Virus genome (UHGV): UHGV-0312702
Direction: 5' to 3' (one strand)
Origin: a virus
DNA: 64,000 bases
In this document: piece after piece, positions 9,653-47,694 of the stretch
Position numbering within the stretch: position 1 is the first letter of the stretch
Layout of the letters: every line of letters starts with the position of its first letter
Notes under the pieces: model-generated
Told to the model about the DNA's origin: nothing
The model's database searches: none
Seen by the model: the letters and a program-made list of their open reading frames with translations, nothing else
Position numbers and translations under genes: made by a program

Positions 9653-10727
9653 AGACGGCTCTTTCAACGTTTGGTCATGCGTTGCTGTAGGTGATAAAGT
9701 TGTTACAACCTACGGTAAAGAAAATGGCAAGATGATGTTTGAAGAGTATACAGCAGAACCTAAAAACATCGGTAAAAAGAATGAGCGTAACGCTGAACAG
9801 CAAGCTCTCTTTGAAGTTGCTGCAAAGTATAAAAAGCAGGTTGACCGCAAAGGTTATGCTTACACAAAAGAGTCTGCACAGAATACTGAGAAGGCAGGTG
9901 TACAGCTTGCTCATGATGCTGCAAAGGTTAGCCACGCAAAGTATTTGAAGTTCCCTGCTGATGCTCAACCAAAACTTGATGGTGTACGTTGCAGAATTTC
10001 AAGAGATGCTGATTCAGTTAGTTTCACAGCTTATTCTCGTGAGAATACTGTTTACAACGTTCCAGTAGAACTAATTCCAGATTTGCTTTTGTTGCTTAAA
10101 TTACATCCACAAGTTGAAGACTTTGATGGAGAGATTTATGCTCATGGTTGGGACTTAGAAGATATTGTATCCATGATTAAGAATGCTGACAATCCAGACC
10201 GTCACCTTCTTAAATTCTACTGGTATGATATCTGTGACAATTCAAAATCTTGGCCTGAGCGTCGTGAAGTTATTGATAGTTCACCTATTGTTGAGCTTGG
10301 GGATACCTGTAGAGTTGTTCCTGTACAGACTATCCGTGTAAATTCTTGGGAAGAGTTTGATGAAGCTCATGATAAGTGGGTTGAAGCTAAGTTTGAAGGT
10401 GCAATGTACCGTTCAATCTCTGAAGACTCCTTCTATGAGTGTTGTCACCGTTCATACTTCTTGATTAAGCACAAGAAGATGCACACTGAAGAGTTTAAAG
10501 TAACTGGTGTAAAGACTGATAAGCGTGGCCACGGTAAGTTCGTTGTAGAGACTCTTCCTAACGTCTTTGTAGATGTCTCATGGAAGACTACTCATGAGAA
10601 GAAACAGTATCTTGCTGAGCATCCTGAAGAGTTTATCGGGAAGCCTTTAACGGTTCAGTTCCAGAAGATGACTCGTAAGGGGTCTTTACAGTTTCCTGTT
10701 GGTCTCGTTATTAGGGATTATGAATAG
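9627..10727 (+). CDS. ATP-dependent DNA ligase
   Basis: motif I KLDGVR (adenylation lysine), FDGEIY, EGAMYR, LIKHKK; start at ATG 9627 with RBS. Confidence 0.75.
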   Translation: MTILYKQNKDGSFNVWSCVAVGDKVVTTYGKENGKMMFEEYTAEPKNIGKKNERNAEQQALFEVAAKYKKQVDRKGYAYTKESAQNTEKAGVQLAHDAAKVSHAKYLKFPADAQPKLDGVRCRISRDADSVSFTAYSRENTVYNVPVELIPDLLLLLKLHPQVEDFDGEIYAHGWDLEDIVSMIKNADNPDRHLLKFYWYDICDNSKSWPERREVIDSSPIVELGDTCRVVPVQTIRVNSWEEFDEAHDKWVEAKFEGAMYRSISEDSFYECCHRSYFLIKHKKMHTEEFKVTGVKTDKRGHGKFVVETLPNVFVDVSWKTTHEKKQYLAEHPEEFIGKPLTVQFQKMTRKGSLQFPVGLVIRDYE

Positions 10728-43676: not shown

Positions 43677-43759
43677 TGGCATGGGACGGAGGAGTTGAAC
43701 CCCTTTGAAACGGTTTTGGAGGCCGTTGCTCATGCCTTAGAGTCTTAACATCGTCCCAC
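43677..43759 (-). tRNA. atypical tRNA-like gene, candidate tRNA-Trp (anticodon CCA)
   Basis: acceptor GTGGGAC/GTCCCAT; loop CTCCAAA; about 7 extra nt in D-arm region. Confidence 0.4.
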
Positions 43760-43978: not shown

Positions 43979-44271
43979 ATTAATCTTTAAAGACTCTCTT
44001 AGAAAGCCCTTAAAGATGCCCACCTTATTAATCATACCGTGGGCTAGTACGCCAAATTCTTTGATGAGGGATTGGAAGACCTCACTGGTGTTTAGCCTAT
44101 CAAGCTACTGCCAGAAAAACATTGTCGTTTGCATTTATTTTAAATTTGCAAAATAGACGCTACGCAACGAAAACTATTCAGAATATGTACAACAAATTTC
44201 CCCACATTGTGTTACGTCTAACGCTCATGTATTGGTGTTTGAATTATACATATTATGAATTATTTTTAGTT

Positions 44272-44300
44272 ACTATAAAGTAGTCACATCTCAATGTCAA
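44272..44300 (-). promoter_or_regulatory. strong sigma70-like promoter inside tRNA cluster
   Basis: minus strand TTGACA (44295-44300), 17-nt spacer, TATAGT (44272-44277). Confidence 0.55.
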
Positions 44301-44315
44301 CAACTTTATTGAAAT

Positions 44316-44549: not shown

Positions 44550-44698
44550 ATTAAATTATCTTTGTAGATAAGCTACCCAGACTTGCTTAAGGTCTGTAGC
44601 GATGTGCCTTGTTGGGTTTAAATCTAGAATTTACCCTTTCACCCTTTGTGGTCGCATACTCACAGGTAAGCTTAATAGCTCACCTACAAAGATAATTA

Positions 44699-44830
44699 CC
44701 AGACCGTTGTTTATCATCTTAAGTGCTACCATTACACCAACTCGACATCTGCCGAGTGAAGGAATCGAACCTTCGCCTTTTCTTTACCGGAGAAATAGAT
44801 TGTTTAAGTTTTGCTGTAAACGGTCTTCTG
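44699..44830 (-). ncRNA. candidate Y-RNA-like ncRNA E1 with tRNA-like module
   Basis: 5' box CAGAAGACC; terminal helix AGACCGTT/AACGGTCT; internal T-arm GAAGG-TTCGATT-CCTTC, acceptor-like hairpin ACTCGGC-AGAT-GTCGAGT, D-arm-like TGGTGTAATGGTAGCAC. Confidence 0.4.
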
Positions 44831-44843
44831 TAAATTTGTTGAG

Positions 44844-44917
44844 CCAGACCAAGTTTTAAATTTTCAAAATTAAATTGGCTTGAAATTTCATACATTCTTG
44901 CTGAATTTGGTCTTCTG
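44844..44917 (-). ncRNA. candidate Y-RNA-like ncRNA E2
   Basis: same 5' box; terminal helix AGACCAA/TTGGTCT (covaries with E1/E3). Confidence 0.35.
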
Positions 44918-45004
44918 CTCCTTTAAAGAATACTCGCAAGAACTCTTTAAGGGAGGGGCTAAATAGCCCTCTCAAAACATCATTTTGAAATACTTATTAT
45001 AATT

Positions 45005-45261: not shown

Positions 45262-45272
45262 TTAATACATTG

Positions 45273-45331
45273 CCAGACCGTGTTTTTCTTTTATCCGCAA
45301 AAAGTAGTTTGTTGCTGAATACGGTCTTCTG
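45273..45331 (-). ncRNA. candidate Y-RNA-like ncRNA E3
   Basis: 5' box; terminal helix AGACCGT/ACGGTCT; begins about 6 nt after a tRNA 3' end. Confidence 0.35.
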
Positions 45332-45337
45332 CAAAAT

Positions 45338-45413
45338 TGGAGGCGGGTGCAGGAGTCGAACCTGCCGATACCATGCTAATGAGACATGTGAGACGCCCTT
45401 TCTCTATACCCGC
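45338..45413 (-). tRNA. tRNA-Met (anticodon CAU), second copy
   Basis: loop CTCATTA; possible 1:72 mismatch. Confidence 0.55.
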
Positions 45414-45425
45414 AATTCTTAATGA

Positions 45426-45498
45426 CCAGACCAAATCTCTTCTTTGTCCGATTGAATGTCAGATGAATAAGATTAAATTTGCTGTAATTGGTCTTCTG
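45426..45498 (-). ncRNA. candidate Y-RNA-like ncRNA E4
   Basis: 5' box; terminal helix AGACCAA/TTGGTCT. Confidence 0.35.
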
Positions 45499-45505
45499 TC
45501 AAAAC

Positions 45506-45580
45506 TGGTGTCGTAGACAGGATTCGAACCTGCGAGCAACTGATTGAAGGTCAGGTGGCTAACCATTTGCCTTCTACGAC
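45506..45580 (-). tRNA. tRNA-Glu (anticodon UUC)
   Basis: acceptor GTCGTAG/CTACGAC; loop CCTTCAA. Confidence 0.6.
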
Positions 45581-45581
45581 A

Positions 45582-45938
45582 TTAAACCATTGTAATTCCA
45601 CTATGAACCTCTCTGTGGCAATTAGCGCATAGCAAAACACATTTATCAAGTTCTTTTTTAACCTTTTCCCAAGATGCACCCATAAGTTTTGATGGTGTAT
45701 TCTCTTTTTCGTTTGGGTTAAGGTGATGCCATTCTAAAGCATTTTTACATTTATTATAGCCACAAATTATGCAACTATCGCCATAAAGCTTATATGCTTT
45801 CTCCCTATTGGCATCCTCTCTAAGTTTTGTCCTTAATGCACAACATTTTAGACAATTTACTCTATTACCGGCGTTACCATTCTTATGAATGCTATGTTCA
45901 GTTAAACCATGAACTGGACATTCTTTTAAAAATCTCAT
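45582..45938 (-). CDS. HNH endonuclease
   Basis: EWHHLNP and CANCHREVH motifs plus Cys pairs; start at ATG 45938 with RBS AAGGGG; track start 46016 runs through tRNA-Pro. Confidence 0.7.
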   Translation of the reverse strand: MRFLKECPVHGLTEHSIHKNGNAGNRVNCLKCCALRTKLREDANREKAYKLYGDSCIICGYNKCKNALEWHHLNPNEKENTPSKLMGASWEKVKKELDKCVLLCANCHREVHSGITMV

Positions 45939-46032: not shown

Positions 46033-46140
46033 ATAAACTTTTCAAACTCTATGTAACCACTTTAACATTATTTTTTAGTGGTTGTCAAGAACTTTTTTAA
46101 AATATTTTTCAGTATCTTAGAAAAGCTCTCATTTCGTTTC

Positions 46141-46169
46141 TATGTAGAACATATTAAAGGGTATCAAAC
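46141..46169 (-). promoter_or_regulatory. sigma70-like promoter at head of tRNA cluster
   Basis: minus strand TTGACA (46164-46169), 17-nt spacer, TAATAT (46141-46146); embedded in AAAGGGTA/TACCCTTT hairpin. Confidence 0.5.
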
Positions 46170-46197
46170 ACATTGTCAATACCCTTTTTAAAACTTT

Positions 46198-47613
46198 TTA
46201 CCAGATGTAACGGTCAATCATTACTGCTTTGAGCATTACGCTGATTGGGTCAAACTTCTCACCACCAAGCAGGGCTTTTAAAGTGGCTGGGGAGAACCCT
46301 GATACCATTGCTACACCGTTATCCTTAACAGACACTTCGCAAGTACCACTACGGTTTGCTAAGTACCAGAATACCAGTTGTGGCATTTCGTATCCAGCTT
46401 TTTTGTACTTACTACGAATTGCTTCAAAGTTTGTACGACCATTTGCACCATCAACCTGATTGAACTCCATATCAGAGAAGATGATAAGCTTACTTGGCAT
46501 ATCTTTCTGAGTCAAGTTGTTTCTCTTGCCTGTCTCAAGAATACGGTCAAAAGCTGCTTGTAAGTTGGTTGAACCATATTCAACATGACGCATTACCTGA
46601 CGGTGACGGTTTCGTAAATCACCACTCAGTTCGATGAAATGAGGGTTTGTTGAATAAACCATTAACTCGTTCTTAAAGCAACCTGTATTGCGTTCTGCTA
46701 CATACAAGGCAAGTGATACACCAATATCGAGGGCAGTAATTGAGCCAAGATTCACCCAAGACATTGAGCTTGAAACATCAGTCATACACAAGATGTTTTC
46801 ACCTTCTGCCATCCAGTTTGGTAGTGCTTTCCACTGCTCATTAGCAACATCTGCATTACCATACTTGATAGATTTAATCACATCGTATGGATAAACAGCA
46901 CCAGCATTAATCTTAGTCTCACCCTTTGATAAGGACTCAACGTAAGCTTTGTAGCGTTCTCCATCTTTACGGTTAAATAATTTTTGGTAACGTGCAGCAG
47001 CAAGTGAAGGAATCTTACTGTAGTCAATCTTACCAAACTCATTAGCAGAGATTTTTTGTTCAACTGTATCAGATAGTGCAGACAGCAGTGTGCGGTACTC
47101 TTTCTCGCTCAAGTTTGCAAACTTACAGAAACGTTTTACAAACTGTTTGTGACGTGGTTTTACTCGTGGTAACCACTTAGCTGCTAAACCTGCTGTTGCA
47201 GGGTCTAGTAAAGCTGCTTCTAAATGTTTGAAGGCATCTGTCTCAAAACGAGTACCTACAAAGATTTTGAAGTCATCAAAGCGACCAAGCTCTGCAATCT
47301 TATCCATAATGCGAAGAACCTGTGTAGGCTCTAAAACTTTATCTTCAATCGCTTGAAGTAAAACAGTTCGGAAAGCCTTACGCTCACCCATACCTTCTCG
47401 TACATCTCGCATATGCAGTAAAATACGAACTGCAACATCAACATCCTCATGCAAAGCTTTGTAGAACAAGTCTGGTAAGATTTCTACATTGCTACGGCTA
47501 GAACCAGCAGCTTTGTAAAAGTCTACAAGAGCAGACATTGATGAAGTATGGTTTACAGCACCATTTTCAGTTCGACCTGCATGAAGGTGCGCATGTTTAA
47601 ATAATTCGCTCAT
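46198..47613 (-). CDS. Ro60/Rsr-like protein (TROVE-like N-terminus + vWA domain)
   Basis: MIDAS DVSSSM plus LGSI, GSTN...IIFSDMEF segments resembling Ro60 vWA as recalled from memory. Confidence 0.55.
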   Translation of the reverse strand: MSELFKHAHLHAGRTENGAVNHTSSMSALVDFYKAAGSSRSNVEILPDLFYKALHEDVDVAVRILLHMRDVREGMGERKAFRTVLLQAIEDKVLEPTQVLRIMDKIAELGRFDDFKIFVGTRFETDAFKHLEAALLDPATAGLAAKWLPRVKPRHKQFVKRFCKFANLSEKEYRTLLSALSDTVEQKISANEFGKIDYSKIPSLAAARYQKLFNRKDGERYKAYVESLSKGETKINAGAVYPYDVIKSIKYGNADVANEQWKALPNWMAEGENILCMTDVSSSMSWVNLGSITALDIGVSLALYVAERNTGCFKNELMVYSTNPHFIELSGDLRNRHRQVMRHVEYGSTNLQAAFDRILETGKRNNLTQKDMPSKLIIFSDMEFNQVDGANGRTNFEAIRSKYKKAGYEMPQLVFWYLANRSGTCEVSVKDNGVAMVSGFSPATLKALLGGEKFDPISVMLKAVMIDRYIW

Positions 47614-47694
47614 ATTTTACTCTCTTCTCTCATTTGTTGTTTGATGTGACAGACTTTAGAGCAACTTTGTAGAGTCTGTCAACACCTTTTAAAA

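What the first reader, a model, noticed from the sequence alone, without database searches (positions are those of the whole stretch)
46198..47613. Phage-encoded Ro60/Rsr-like (TROVE + vWA) protein next to the tRNA cluster
The C-terminal half has a vWA MIDAS motif (DVSSSM) and flanking segments (LGSI...; GSTN...IIFSDMEF) that resemble the Ro60 vWA domain as I recall it. Ro60 orthologs act with Y-RNA-like ncRNAs that carry a tRNA-like module. Here the gene sits directly upstream of, and co-oriented with, a tRNA cluster containing four paralogous structured RNAs, one with tRNA-like elements. Together this suggests a phage Ro60-Y RNA ribonucleoprotein, possibly for RNA quality control or host RNA takeover.
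Basis: partly seen in the sequence, partly recalled or inferred. Interest (0 to 1): 0.9.

Follow-up and report, generated by a model that had tools for sequence, protein, structure and literature searches.

The report
Phage Ro60-like protein with Y-like RNAs
A Felix O1-type phage encodes a ring-shaped Ro60-like RNA-binding protein and, in the tRNA cluster just downstream, four small RNAs with a shared "handle"; the same handle lies beside this protein's gene in very different phages and closely resembles the orphan Class I RNAs of social amoebae.

Summary
ORF 46198-47613 (-) encodes 471 aa with an intact MIDAS, directly upstream of 26 co-oriented tRNA genes. The window is a Felixounavirus.

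The protein part is not new. Bas63 gp130, 98% identical, was called Ro60-like and a Ppl-defence counter in a 2024 preprint, which only guessed that some tRNA genes might be Y RNAs.

The RNA part appears new. Four non-tRNA elements, E1-E4, share a covarying terminal helix followed by single-stranded UUNCAGCAA. E4 carries a permuted T-arm, acceptor-like hairpin and D-arm, as YrlA does. A covariance model built only from distant phages ranks E1-E3 as the top three hits in the window. Across 834 kb of 72 loci, all 73 hits lie on the gene's strand.

Rfam's nearest family for the handle is Dictyostelium Class I RNA, with the same CUUACAGCAA but below threshold.

Protein-RNA binding and function remain inferred.

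The parts
46198..47613 (-). Gene for a 471-aa Ro60-fold protein: N-terminal helical ring (about residues 1-263) and C-terminal vWA with MIDAS (about 274-471). Pfam DUF2828+DUF7788; PHROG 850 'RNA-binding protein'.
47653..47682 (-). Sigma-70-like promoter match (TTGACA-18-TAAAGT) just upstream of the gene, embedded in a 9-bp perfect palindrome.
   Evidence: This is a consensus match only, and such sites are not enriched over shuffles.
46059..46179 (-). Two sigma-70-like promoter matches between the gene and tRNA-Pro. They could drive the tRNA and Y-like RNA cluster.
   Evidence: consensus matches only
45419..45504 (-). E1, a Y-like RNA: outer 4-bp stem UGAC/GUCA, internal loop AGA/G, inner stem AGACCAA/UUGGUCU, UUACAGCAA, then a small hairpin. 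It fills the spacer between tRNA-Glu (with encoded CCA) and tRNA-Met.
   Evidence: (R1 29.4 bits, E 4e-5)
45266..45337 (-). E2, a Y-like RNA: outer stem UUGC/GCAA with the same loop, inner stem and AUUCAGCAA. It fills the spacer between tRNA-Met and tRNA-Asn.
   Evidence: 27.5 bits, E 1.2e-4; RF01414 20 bits, full length
44837..44923 (-). E3, a Y-like RNA: outer stem GAGC/GCUC, then AUUCAGCAA. It lies in tandem with E4.
   Evidence: (15.7 bits, E 0.15)
44692..44836 (-). E4, a Y-like RNA with a permuted tRNA-like cargo: the same handle, then a V-like hairpin, a T-arm (GAAGGUUCGAUUCCUUC), a 7-bp acceptor-like hairpin and a D-arm (GGUGUAAUGGUAGCAC). This is the module order of YrlA.
   Evidence: partial tRNA hit 44757-44807; 12 of 16 pairs with compensatory changes
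45509..45580 (-). tRNA-Glu, flanking E1 on its 5' side. tRNA 3' processing would define the 5' end of E1 (inferred).
   Evidence: annotated as tRNA-Glu in Bas63
45338..45414 (-). Atypical tRNA-Met lying between E1 and E2. RNase P cleavage at its 5' end would define the 3' end of E1 (inferred).
   Evidence: ARAGORN; below the Rfam tRNA threshold

Best explanation
The ORF encodes a divergent, phage-type Ro60: a helical ring closed by a vWA/MIDAS domain, classed by Pfam as DUF2828/DUF7788. E1-E4 are most likely its Y-RNA-like partners.

Each RNA closes its 5' and 3' ends into a helix. In this phage that helix is a 4-bp outer stem, an AGA/G internal loop and a 7-bp inner stem. It is followed directly by an invariant single-stranded UUNCAGCAA. 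I propose that this handle is what the ring protein recognises. The variable middle would be an effector module: small hairpins in E1-E3, and in E4 a circularly permuted tRNA mimic (T-arm, 7-bp acceptor-like hairpin, D-arm) that could engage tRNA-handling enzymes or an exoribonuclease.

E1 and E2 exactly fill inter-tRNA spacers, so RNase P and tRNA 3'-end processing would release them from the cluster transcript.

By analogy with bacterial Rsr-YrlA-PNPase and Thermus phage phiRo60-Yrl-PNPase, the RNP probably redirects or restrains host RNA decay or repair during infection and helps the phage against host defence.

Shown here: the gene, the intact MIDAS, the predicted Ro60 fold, the RNA family with its covariation, and its co-location with the gene. 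Shown by others: anti-Ppl activity of the 98%-identical Bas63 gp130. Inferred: protein-RNA binding, the processing route, and the cellular target.

For: RNA in this phage group. The handle helices covary among paralogs and relatives: 99% of cells paired, and 3 of 4 outer-stem pairs show double changes. The outer stem was not used to select the sequences.

RNA across phages. Model R1 was built only from phages whose protein is 31-47% identical to this one. It ranks E1, E2 and E3 as hits 1-3 in the 64-kb window. Over 72 loci and 834 kb, both strands, 73 of 73 hits at E<=1 are on the gene's strand, in 48 loci, and all within about 3.3 kb of the gene. In these hits the stem is 97% paired, 7 of 7 pairs show double changes, and the covariation score is 0.90 against 0.215 in shuffles. 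The same elements lie beside the gene in phages of Mycobacterium, Listeria and Campylobacter, and Yersinia.

No protein-coding neighbour is shared by more than 14 of 69 loci, so the RNA is the most conserved neighbour.

E4-type cargo. RNAalifold gives a T-arm, a 7-bp hairpin and a D-arm, with 12 of 16 pairs compensated. This matches the YrlA module order. A relative, L021:5770-5880, hits Rfam YrlA at 38 bits, E 8e-5.

Genetics. Bas63 gp130 is 98% identical with the same synteny and counters Ppl.
Against: There is no sequence-level TROVE match in the protein or in 48 relatives. The family profile against PDB sequences gives Ro60 only E 0.69, at the MIDAS region, and does not find phiLo Ro60 at all.

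E1-E4 lack the Ro-binding motifs of known Y RNAs, GGUCCGA and GNCGAAN0-1G. They do not reach any Rfam threshold: there is no RF02553 or RF00019 hit.

gp130 alone, expressed from a plasmid or from within T7, restores plaquing on Ppl cells. That activity therefore does not need E1-E4.

The inner-stem sequences in my first scans were chosen for complementarity, and A6 is fitted to the model, so the percentage paired is partly circular.

24 of the 72 loci have no R1 hit. I found no expression or binding data.
Confidence: 0.65

Rival explanations
1. The protein acts on its own, as a vWA/MIDAS-based protein inhibitor or decoy of host defence such as Ppl. E1-E4 would then be unrelated by-products or processing spacers of the tRNA cluster.
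For: gp130 alone rescues T7 on Ppl hosts. vWA/MIDAS domains are classic protein-protein interaction modules, as the many vWA complexes show. E1 and E2 sit exactly in inter-tRNA spacers.
Against: The handle RNAs follow the gene, not tRNA clusters. They flank it in mycobacteriophages, Listeria phages and Campylobacter phages that have few or no adjacent tRNAs. All 73 hits are on the gene's strand. The invariant CAGCAA and the covarying stem point to a specific ligand. The whole Ro60 ring is conserved, not only the vWA domain.
Confidence: 0.2
2. The handle elements are cis-regulatory or autoregulatory leaders or processing signals for the Ro-like gene's mRNA, rather than trans-acting Y-like RNAs.
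For: In many distant loci one short element lies immediately upstream of the gene or overlaps its RBS or start codon. Examples are L019/L020 5957-6013, L071 5897-5949, L062 and L042, and L089 3429-3523.
Against: In this window the four elements lie 0.7-1.5 kb downstream of the gene, beyond two promoter-like sites and several tRNAs. Elements occur in tandem arrays of up to 4-5 with different cargos, including tRNA mimics and modules of about 250 nt. That pattern fits stand-alone RNAs. The two roles are not exclusive, since the protein could also bind its own leader.
Confidence: 0.1
3. The protein is a generic vWA protein, and its resemblance to Ro60 is an artefact of the prediction.
For: There is no TROVE HMM hit. 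Sequence identity to Ro60 structures is 10-16%.
Against: The model is confident throughout, with no segment below pLDDT 50. Two independent structure-comparison methods place full-length Ro60 structures from three kingdoms on top, with twice the aligned length of vWA-only hits. The Ro60-specific vWA model PF25045 is weakly matched by 10 of 48 relatives. An independent group reached the same conclusion for Bas63 gp130.
Confidence: 0.03

Closest known systems
Bas63 (Escherichia phage JohannRWettstein, MZ501086) gp130, PhageMaP preprint PMC11482910
   Same: The protein is 98% identical, with the same synteny: a DUF5681 gene upstream and tRNA-Pro downstream. It was described as structurally similar to Ro60 and as a counter to the Ppl defence, and the authors suggested it may work with Y RNAs.
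   Different: The preprint guessed that 'some tRNA genes are possibly Y RNAs' and named none. Here the candidates are four specific non-tRNA elements in the spacers. In Bas63 two spurious CDSs are annotated in the E3/E4 spacer. Model R1 finds E1-E3 in Bas63 too.
Bacterial Rsr (Ro60) with YrlA/YrlB Y RNAs and PNPase (RYPER); Chen et al. 2014, PMC4201824
   Same: A ring plus vWA protein with several small RNAs encoded within 4 kb on the same strand. One RNA carries a permuted tRNA mimic in the order V, T, acceptor-like, D. The 7-bp acceptor-like stem resembles that of M. smegmatis YrlA, which RNase P cleaves.
   Different: The protein is DUF2828/DUF7788, not TROVE, by sequence. The RNA handle is a stem plus UUNCAGCAA, not GNCGAAN0-1G. 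E4 does not hit Rfam YrlA RF02553. Chen et al. searched only genomes annotated as carrying a TROVE protein.
Thermus phage phiLo phiRo60 with Yrl1/Yrl2 (NAR 2025, PMC12135203; PDB 9l5y, and 9kop 'Trove domain', probably the same protein)
   Different: phiRo60 is a TROVE-type protein with no detectable sequence similarity to this family. Its RNAs were picked by a CGAA motif and lie upstream of the gene. They have no CAGCAA handle and no tRNA cluster.
Dictyostelid Class I RNAs (Rfam RF01414; Kjellin et al. 2021, PMC7919456)
   Same: RNAs of about 60 nt with a 6-7 bp terminal stem that covaries. The 5' G is invariant, and the motif CUUACAGCAA follows the 5' strand directly. The ends are AAG... and ...CUG(U), the middle is variable, and the genes are multi-copy and clustered. 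The Rfam model aligns phage elements over its full length: 28.9 bits, E 3.7e-4 to 1.6e-3 for L027; 22.8 bits for L083; 20 bits for window E2.
   Different: All scores are below the gathering score of 41.5. The window's elements have AGACC/GGUCU-GG and an extra outer stem instead of GG.../...CCUGU. Class I RNAs are eukaryotic, have a DUSE promoter, are reported as unique to Dictyostelia, and have a known direct binder that is an RRM protein, Rnp1A. Whether dictyostelids encode a DUF2828 protein could not be tested here.
Mycobacteriophage 'Ro-like RNA binding protein' (clusters E/L, e.g. Lolly9 gp54, Acquire49 gp54)
   Same: The same protein family, 31-34% identical over the full length. Three handle RNAs lie directly downstream, and the middle one has the permuted tRNA-like cargo.
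   Different: These are siphoviruses with almost no tRNA cluster. The RNAs form one compact array after the gene rather than being interleaved with tRNAs. Their handle is GGAC.../...GUCCAGU.

Membership tests
Ro60 / TROVE (Pfam PF05731 + PF25045) | Significant match to the TROVE domain HMM | tested here: not met
   No PF05731 hit at E<=1 for the protein, nor at E<=10 in any of 48 relatives.
Ro60 / TROVE (Pfam PF05731 + PF25045) | Fold: HEAT-like helical ring closed by a C-terminal vWA domain | tested here: met
Ro60 / TROVE (Pfam PF05731 + PF25045) | Intact MIDAS (DxSxS...T...D) in the vWA domain | tested here: met
   D279, S281, S283, T349 and D381 are present and invariant in the family.
Ro60 / TROVE (Pfam PF05731 + PF25045) | Ro60-specific vWA signature (PF25045) | tested here: inconclusive
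   Not matched by the window protein. Weakly matched by 10 of 48 relatives, best E 1.7e-4. The family profile versus the Ro60 PDB sequence gives E 0.69 at the MIDAS region.
Ro60 / TROVE (Pfam PF05731 + PF25045) | Binds Y RNAs or misfolded RNAs | not testable with these tools
   Only co-location and comparative evidence are available.
DUF2828/DUF7788 (PHROG 850 'RNA-binding protein') | HMM matches above the curated thresholds | tested here: met
   PF25043 147 bits (cut-off 27.1) and PF11443 101 bits (cut-off 29). phrog_850 E 5.8e-183 over the full length.
YrlA Y RNA (Rfam RF02553; Chen et al. 2014) | tRNA-like domain in the order T-arm, acceptor-like stem-loop, D-arm | tested here: met
   For E4 and 9 relatives: 5-bp T stem with GGUUCGAnUCC, a 7-bp hairpin and a 4-bp D stem, with 12 of 16 pairs compensated. 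The module order matches.
YrlA Y RNA (Rfam RF02553; Chen et al. 2014) | 5' motif GNCGAAN0-1G | tested here: not met
   The E1-E4 5' ends read (U/G)NNCAGAAGACC...CAGCAA, with no GNCGAA.
YrlA Y RNA (Rfam RF02553; Chen et al. 2014) | Rfam gathering score (69 bits) | tested here: not met
   No RF02553 hit in the window even at E<=10. A relative's element, L021:5770-5880, scores 38.2 bits, E 8e-5.
YrlA Y RNA (Rfam RF02553; Chen et al. 2014) | Encoded within 4 kb of the Ro60 gene on the same strand | tested here: met
   E1-E4 lie 0.7-1.5 kb downstream on the minus strand.
Dictyostelium Class I RNA (Rfam RF01414) | Terminal 6-bp stem joining the 5' and 3' ends, with an invariant 5' G | tested here: met
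   A 7-bp stem that is 97% paired, with G at 99% in 71 distinct phage elements. The window's inner stem is 100% paired.
Dictyostelium Class I RNA (Rfam RF01414) | 11-nt motif next to the 5' stem, with conserved U, C, C, A, A at positions 3, 6, 9, 10, 11 | tested here: met
   In phage elements these positions read U 89%, C 100%, C 100%, A 99%, A 90%. The Rfam consensus is CUUACAGCAA. E1-E4 read UUACAGCAA or AUUCAGCAA.
Dictyostelium Class I RNA (Rfam RF01414) | Rfam gathering score (41.5 bits) | tested here: not met
   Best phage element 28.9 bits; window E2 20.0 bits.
Dictyostelium Class I RNA (Rfam RF01414) | Ends AAG... and ...CUGU | tested here: inconclusive
   Most phage elements read (A)AG...CUG(U/A). 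The window elements read AAGACC...GGUCUGG and have an additional outer stem.
Dictyostelium Class I RNA (Rfam RF01414) | Dictyostelid genomic context (DUSE promoter, Rnp1A partner) | not testable with these tools
   No eukaryotic proteomes or genomes are available here. A Xenopus Ro60 fragment query returned only four short metagenomic fragments and no vertebrate Ro60, which suggests the protein database lacks eukaryotic proteins. The afdb50 library was unavailable.

The most novel reading that the evidence does not exclude
The phage handle RNAs and the Class I RNAs of dictyostelid amoebae are one RNA class: the dedicated ligands of DUF2828/DUF7788-type Ro60-like proteins. Pfam DUF2828 also has eukaryotic members; the only papers that mention it here concern plants and a tardigrade.

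If so, Class I RNAs are not unique to Dictyostelia. Their missing core partner would be a Ro60-fold protein. A second, sequence-distinct branch of Ro60/Y-RNA ribonucleoproteins would span phages of at least three bacterial phyla and eukaryotes. The conserved handle would carry interchangeable cargo: permuted tRNA mimics, non-permuted tRNA bodies and structured modules of about 250 nt.
Probability: 0.35. Interest if true: 0.9.

Novelty: new variant of a known kind. Interest (0 to 1): 0.75.

Why it matters
Ro60-Y RNA particles are known from animals, from about 5% of bacteria and from a few phages. Their RNA partners have been found only next to TROVE-annotated genes.

This case shows that a much larger family goes with its own conserved RNA handle. 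The family has about 8,800 clusters at 50% identity, occurs in 710 phage records and is labelled DUF2828/DUF7788 or 'hypothetical'.

It gives the experimentally tractable E. coli phage Bas63, whose gp130 has a knockout phenotype, four concrete RNA candidates to test. The preprint on Bas63 offered only a guess about tRNA genes.

It provides a covariance model and a simple signature: terminal stem plus UUACAGCAA. That signature would re-annotate hundreds of phage genomes in which these RNAs are unannotated or mis-called as tRNAs or small ORFs.

The near-identity of the handle to Dictyostelium Class I RNAs is the widest implication. These abundant RNAs have had an unclear mechanism since 2004 and are thought to be lineage-specific. 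The resemblance turns their function into a directly testable question.

Tried and rejected
Sequence route to Ro60. Pfam has no TROVE hit. phmmer and the family profile against PDB sequences give nothing significant. I queried the protein database with a 73-aa Xenopus Ro60 fragment to build a TROVE alignment for hhalign, but it returned only four short fragments. The profile-profile test therefore could not be run.

The exhaustive representative search showed only the top 150 close relatives and gave no bridge to TROVE.

Rfam at gathering thresholds finds only tRNAs and tmRNAs in the window and in 10 distant loci.

MFE folding z-scores of single elements are unimpressive, from -1.1 to -1.8, and +0.7 for a 79-nt fragment that ended before the 3' strand of E3's handle. 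The structural case rests on covariation, not on energy.

Two MAFFT alignments mixing Ounavirinae and distant elements put the 3' strands in different registers. I rejected them for model building, and the model was instead built without any Ounavirinae sequence.

The neighbourhood analysis looked for a conserved protein partner such as RtcB, PNPase or a nuclease. Nothing is shared by more than 14 of 69 loci, and the top clusters are unknown families, DnaJ or ClpP.

The promoter and terminator scan is not enriched over shuffles.

Not available: the supplement of Chen et al. 2014, the Wolin-lab reviews, Avesson 2011 and Aspegren 2004, and the afdb50 fold library.

I considered and rejected E4 as a decoy for anticodon nucleases, because it has no anticodon arm.
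Full report
WHAT THE WINDOW IS. The 2.7 kb around the finding is 95-97% identical to Felix O1-like myoviruses: Escherichia phage nataliec, Salmonella phage Meda and about 250 other records. The window is therefore a Felixounavirus genome segment.

OBSERVATION. ORF 46198-47613 (-) is real: 471 aa with an ATG start. The MIDAS residues D279, S281, S283, T349 and D381 are invariant in a 48-member alignment that reaches down to 42% identity. Downstream on the same strand lie 25 ARAGORN tRNAs and a further tRNA-Glu found only by Rfam.

Reading the minus strand and a motif scan show four paralogous non-tRNA elements: E1 45504-45419, E2 45337-45266, E3 44923-44837 and E4 44836-44692.

THE PROTEIN. Pfam assigns DUF2828 (E 7e-29) and DUF7788 (E 5e-43), and there is no TROVE hit. 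PHROGs assigns phrog_850, 'RNA-binding protein'. None of 48 relatives hits TROVE. Ten hit the Ro60-specific vWA model only weakly. Sequence searches against PDB are not significant; Ro60 appears at E 0.69, around the MIDAS only.

Structure prediction with the family alignment is confident: pLDDT 89.6 and pTM 0.89, with a helical N-terminal 263 residues and an alpha/beta C-terminal domain.
- Foldseek against PDB puts nine Ro60/TROVE structures on top over the full length (E 2e-8 to 1e-6). Generic vWA domains start at 1.8e-3.

The family is very large: 8,842 clusters at 50% identity. It occurs in 710 phage records, including Vibrio and Aeromonas T4-like phages and phages of Campylobacter, Listeria, Staphylococcus, Bacillus and Enterococcus. 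It also includes mycobacteriophages, where it is already annotated 'Ro-like RNA binding protein'.

PRIOR ART. Bas63 (MZ501086) gp130 is 98% identical with identical synteny. A 2024 preprint reports its structural similarity to Ro60 and notes that it sits upstream of tRNA genes. [quoted passage not shown] They also show that gp130 counters the Ppl defence, including when it is moved alone into T7.

Other relevant work:
- A 2025 paper solved a TROVE-type phage Ro60 from Thermus phage phiLo. It showed binding to two adjacent Y-like RNAs and to host PNPase.
- Chen et al. 2014 found YrlA RNAs near TROVE-annotated genes in 254 bacteria and 22 phages, but searched only TROVE-annotated genomes.

THE RNAS IN THIS PHAGE. 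E1-E4 share one architecture:
- a 4-bp outer stem that differs between paralogs in a compensatory way (UGAC/GUCA, UUGC/GCAA, GAGC/GCUC, UUAC/GUAA);
- an AGA/G internal loop;
- a 7-bp inner stem (AGACCNN/NNGGUCU);
- single-stranded UUNCAGCAA;
- a variable middle.

On 12 distinct Ounavirinae and Yersinia phage sequences, 99% of cells pair. Three of the four outer-stem pairs show double changes, and slid controls collapse to 21-43% paired. The outer stem played no part in selecting the sequences.

E4's middle contains a T-arm, a 7-bp hairpin and a D-arm. RNAalifold on E4 and nine relatives recovers these helices, with compensatory changes in 12 of 16 pairs. This is the V, T, acceptor-like, D order that defines YrlA.

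E1 and E2 fill the spacers tRNA-Glu(CCA)/tRNA-Met and tRNA-Met/tRNA-Asn to within a few nucleotides. tRNA end-processing would therefore release them; this step is an inference.

The elements are conserved in about 250 records. There they are unannotated or mis-called as tRNA-OTHER or small ORFs.

THE RNAS ELSEWHERE. Yersinia phage P778, whose protein is 53% identical, has four elements reading GCAYAGGAYUN...UAUUCAGCAA...NARUCCAGC in its tRNA cluster.

A simple scan of 80 IMG/VR loci with proteins of 39-98% identity found the pattern 'A-GGNNNN-UUN-CAGCAA...NNNNCC-UG' next to the gene. There were 107 matches on the gene strand and 14 on the other strand.

I built covariance model R1 from 26 such elements, none from Ounavirinae.
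- In the 64-kb window its three best hits are E1 (E 4e-5), E2 (1.2e-4) and E3 (0.15). The 5' part of E4 ranks fifth.
- Over 72 loci (834 kb, both strands), all 73 hits at E<=1 are on the gene's strand. They fall in 48 loci and lie within about 3.3 kb of the gene.
- On these hits the stem is 97% paired, all 7 pairs have double changes, and the covariation score is 0.90 against 0.215 in shuffles. That alignment is fitted to the model, so the percentage paired leans high.

The elements also flank the gene in mycobacteriophages Lolly9 and Acquire49, with three each and the middle one tRNA-like. They do so in Listeria phage List-36 (two, 44.6 and 40.4 bits) and Campylobacter phage F360. No protein-coding neighbour is shared by more than 14 of 69 loci.

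Cargo is modular. It includes permuted tRNA mimics, non-permuted tRNA bodies (L067:8352-8413 hits Rfam tRNA positions 5-66) and conserved modules of about 250 nt.

COMPARISON WITH KNOWN RNA FAMILIES. No Rfam family reaches threshold on E1-E4. Rfam's YrlA model does hit a relative's element just upstream of its gene (L021, 38 bits, E 8e-5), but it does not hit E4.

Unexpectedly, the best Rfam match to the short elements is Dictyostelium Class I RNA (RF01414): 28.9 bits over the full length, E 3.7e-4 to 1.6e-3 in the region searched. The Rfam consensus is GaUcuC-CUUACAGCAA...GagAuC-UG. The phage element reads GGUUC-CUUACAGCAA...GGAACC-UG. Window E2 scores 20 bits.

The positions Kjellin et al. 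report as conserved across Dictyostelia match the most conserved columns of 71 distinct phage elements. [quoted passage not shown] That paper states that Class I RNAs were found in no other organism. No paper in the library links them to Ro60, Y RNAs or phages. Whether dictyostelids have a DUF2828 protein could not be tested.

MECHANISM AND CONFIDENCE. The most likely reading (0.65) is a phage Ro60-fold protein that binds E1-E4 through the stem-plus-CAGCAA handle. E4's tRNA mimic, or the other cargos, would then engage host RNA enzymes, as in the Rsr-YrlA-PNPase and phiRo60-Yrl-PNPase complexes. The outcome would help the phage against host defence.

The main rival (0.2) is that the protein works alone through its vWA/MIDAS domain. 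The T7 transfer experiment supports this, and it is not exclusive of the RNP reading. A cis-regulatory leader role (0.1) fits the copies that overlap the gene's RBS in other phages, but not this window. The artefact reading is essentially excluded.

VERDICT. The protein identification is already published for a 98%-identical ortholog. The specific RNAs, their family-wide conserved handle and the Class I RNA resemblance appear new.

Noticed in passing
window 44097-44132 (-), wider region 43979-44315: A tmRNA-tag-like reading frame, GCA AAC GAC AAU GUU UUU CUG GCA GUA GCU UGA UAG = ANDNVFLAVA**, lies in the tRNA cluster. It is conserved in nataliec, Bas63, Moogle and SUSP-like phages, with synonymous and stop-codon changes. 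There are weak Rfam tmRNA and permuted-tmRNA hits (15-23 bits), but ARAGORN calls no tmRNA. It may be a degenerate or two-piece phage tmRNA.
   Followed up: partly
L027:7410-7470, L083:7528-7581, window 45274-45326 (-): Rfam's Dictyostelium Class I RNA model (RF01414) aligns over its full length to the phage handle elements (20-29 bits, below the gathering score of 41.5). The motif CUUACAGCAA and the terminal-stem design are identical.
   Followed up: partly
L023:7846-8117, L026:5550-5819, L027:7465-7737, L047:7514-7769, L065:6072-6328 and others: A conserved structured RNA of about 250 nt is enclosed in the same stem+CAGCAA handle, directly after a short handle RNA, in many metagenomic phage loci. 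Two other large types occur in L024/L042 and in L056/L062/L071. None matches an Rfam family.
   Followed up: partly
L067:8322-8434, L066:8185-8321: Handle elements whose cargo is a non-permuted tRNA body (D-arm, anticodon arm, T-arm). The Rfam tRNA model scores 55.7 bits over positions 5-66, so the handle takes the place of the acceptor stem.
   Followed up: no
L019:5957-6014, L020:5956-6014 (KVP40-like Vibrio phages); L071:5896-5950; L062:5898-5952; L042:5941-5994: A short handle element lies directly on the ribosome-binding site or start codon of the Ro-like gene. This suggests possible autoregulation by the protein binding its own leader.
   Followed up: no
window 45582-45937 (-): An HNH homing-endonuclease gene is inserted between tRNA-Pro and tRNA-Glu. 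Only 3 of the 15 closest relatives carry it, and the others lack about 450 bp there. The TTG start given by the ORF listing (46016) overlaps tRNA-Pro; the ATG at 45937 is the more likely start.
   Followed up: partly
window 45509-45580 (-) and 45338-45414 (-): ARAGORN misses tRNA-Glu, which Rfam scores at 55 bits. Conversely, the tRNA-Met that ARAGORN calls between E1 and E2 falls below Rfam's tRNA threshold and has an odd D region.
   Followed up: no
window 43683-43757 (-); L002 about 10400-10517: An unannotated tRNA-like element with a normal T-arm and a terminal GCCA but an aberrant 5' half (tRNA-Sec model, 23 bits). A similar sequence, GGGACGAUGUUAAGAC...GGUUC, occurs in Yersinia phage P778.
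   Followed up: no
window 47648-47684: A perfect 9-bp palindrome, TGACAGACT-N18-AGTCTGTCA, spans the promoter-like -35/-10 of the Ro-like gene. Promoter-like matches appear on both strands. It may be an operator.
   Followed up: no
L088 (Listeria phage List-36) 2765-7521: The homolog sits among tRNAs, a 'ribosome associated inhibitor A' gene, an HD phosphohydrolase and an RtcB 'tRNA splicing ligase'. This recalls the Salmonella rsr-yrlBA-rtcBA operon. L068 and L083 carry a tmRNA 1.4-2.3 kb downstream of the gene.
   Followed up: no
H49, Pectobacterium phage CBB 102800-104236: The homolog is annotated 'structural protein'. If it is packaged in virions, it could act immediately on entry.
   Followed up: no
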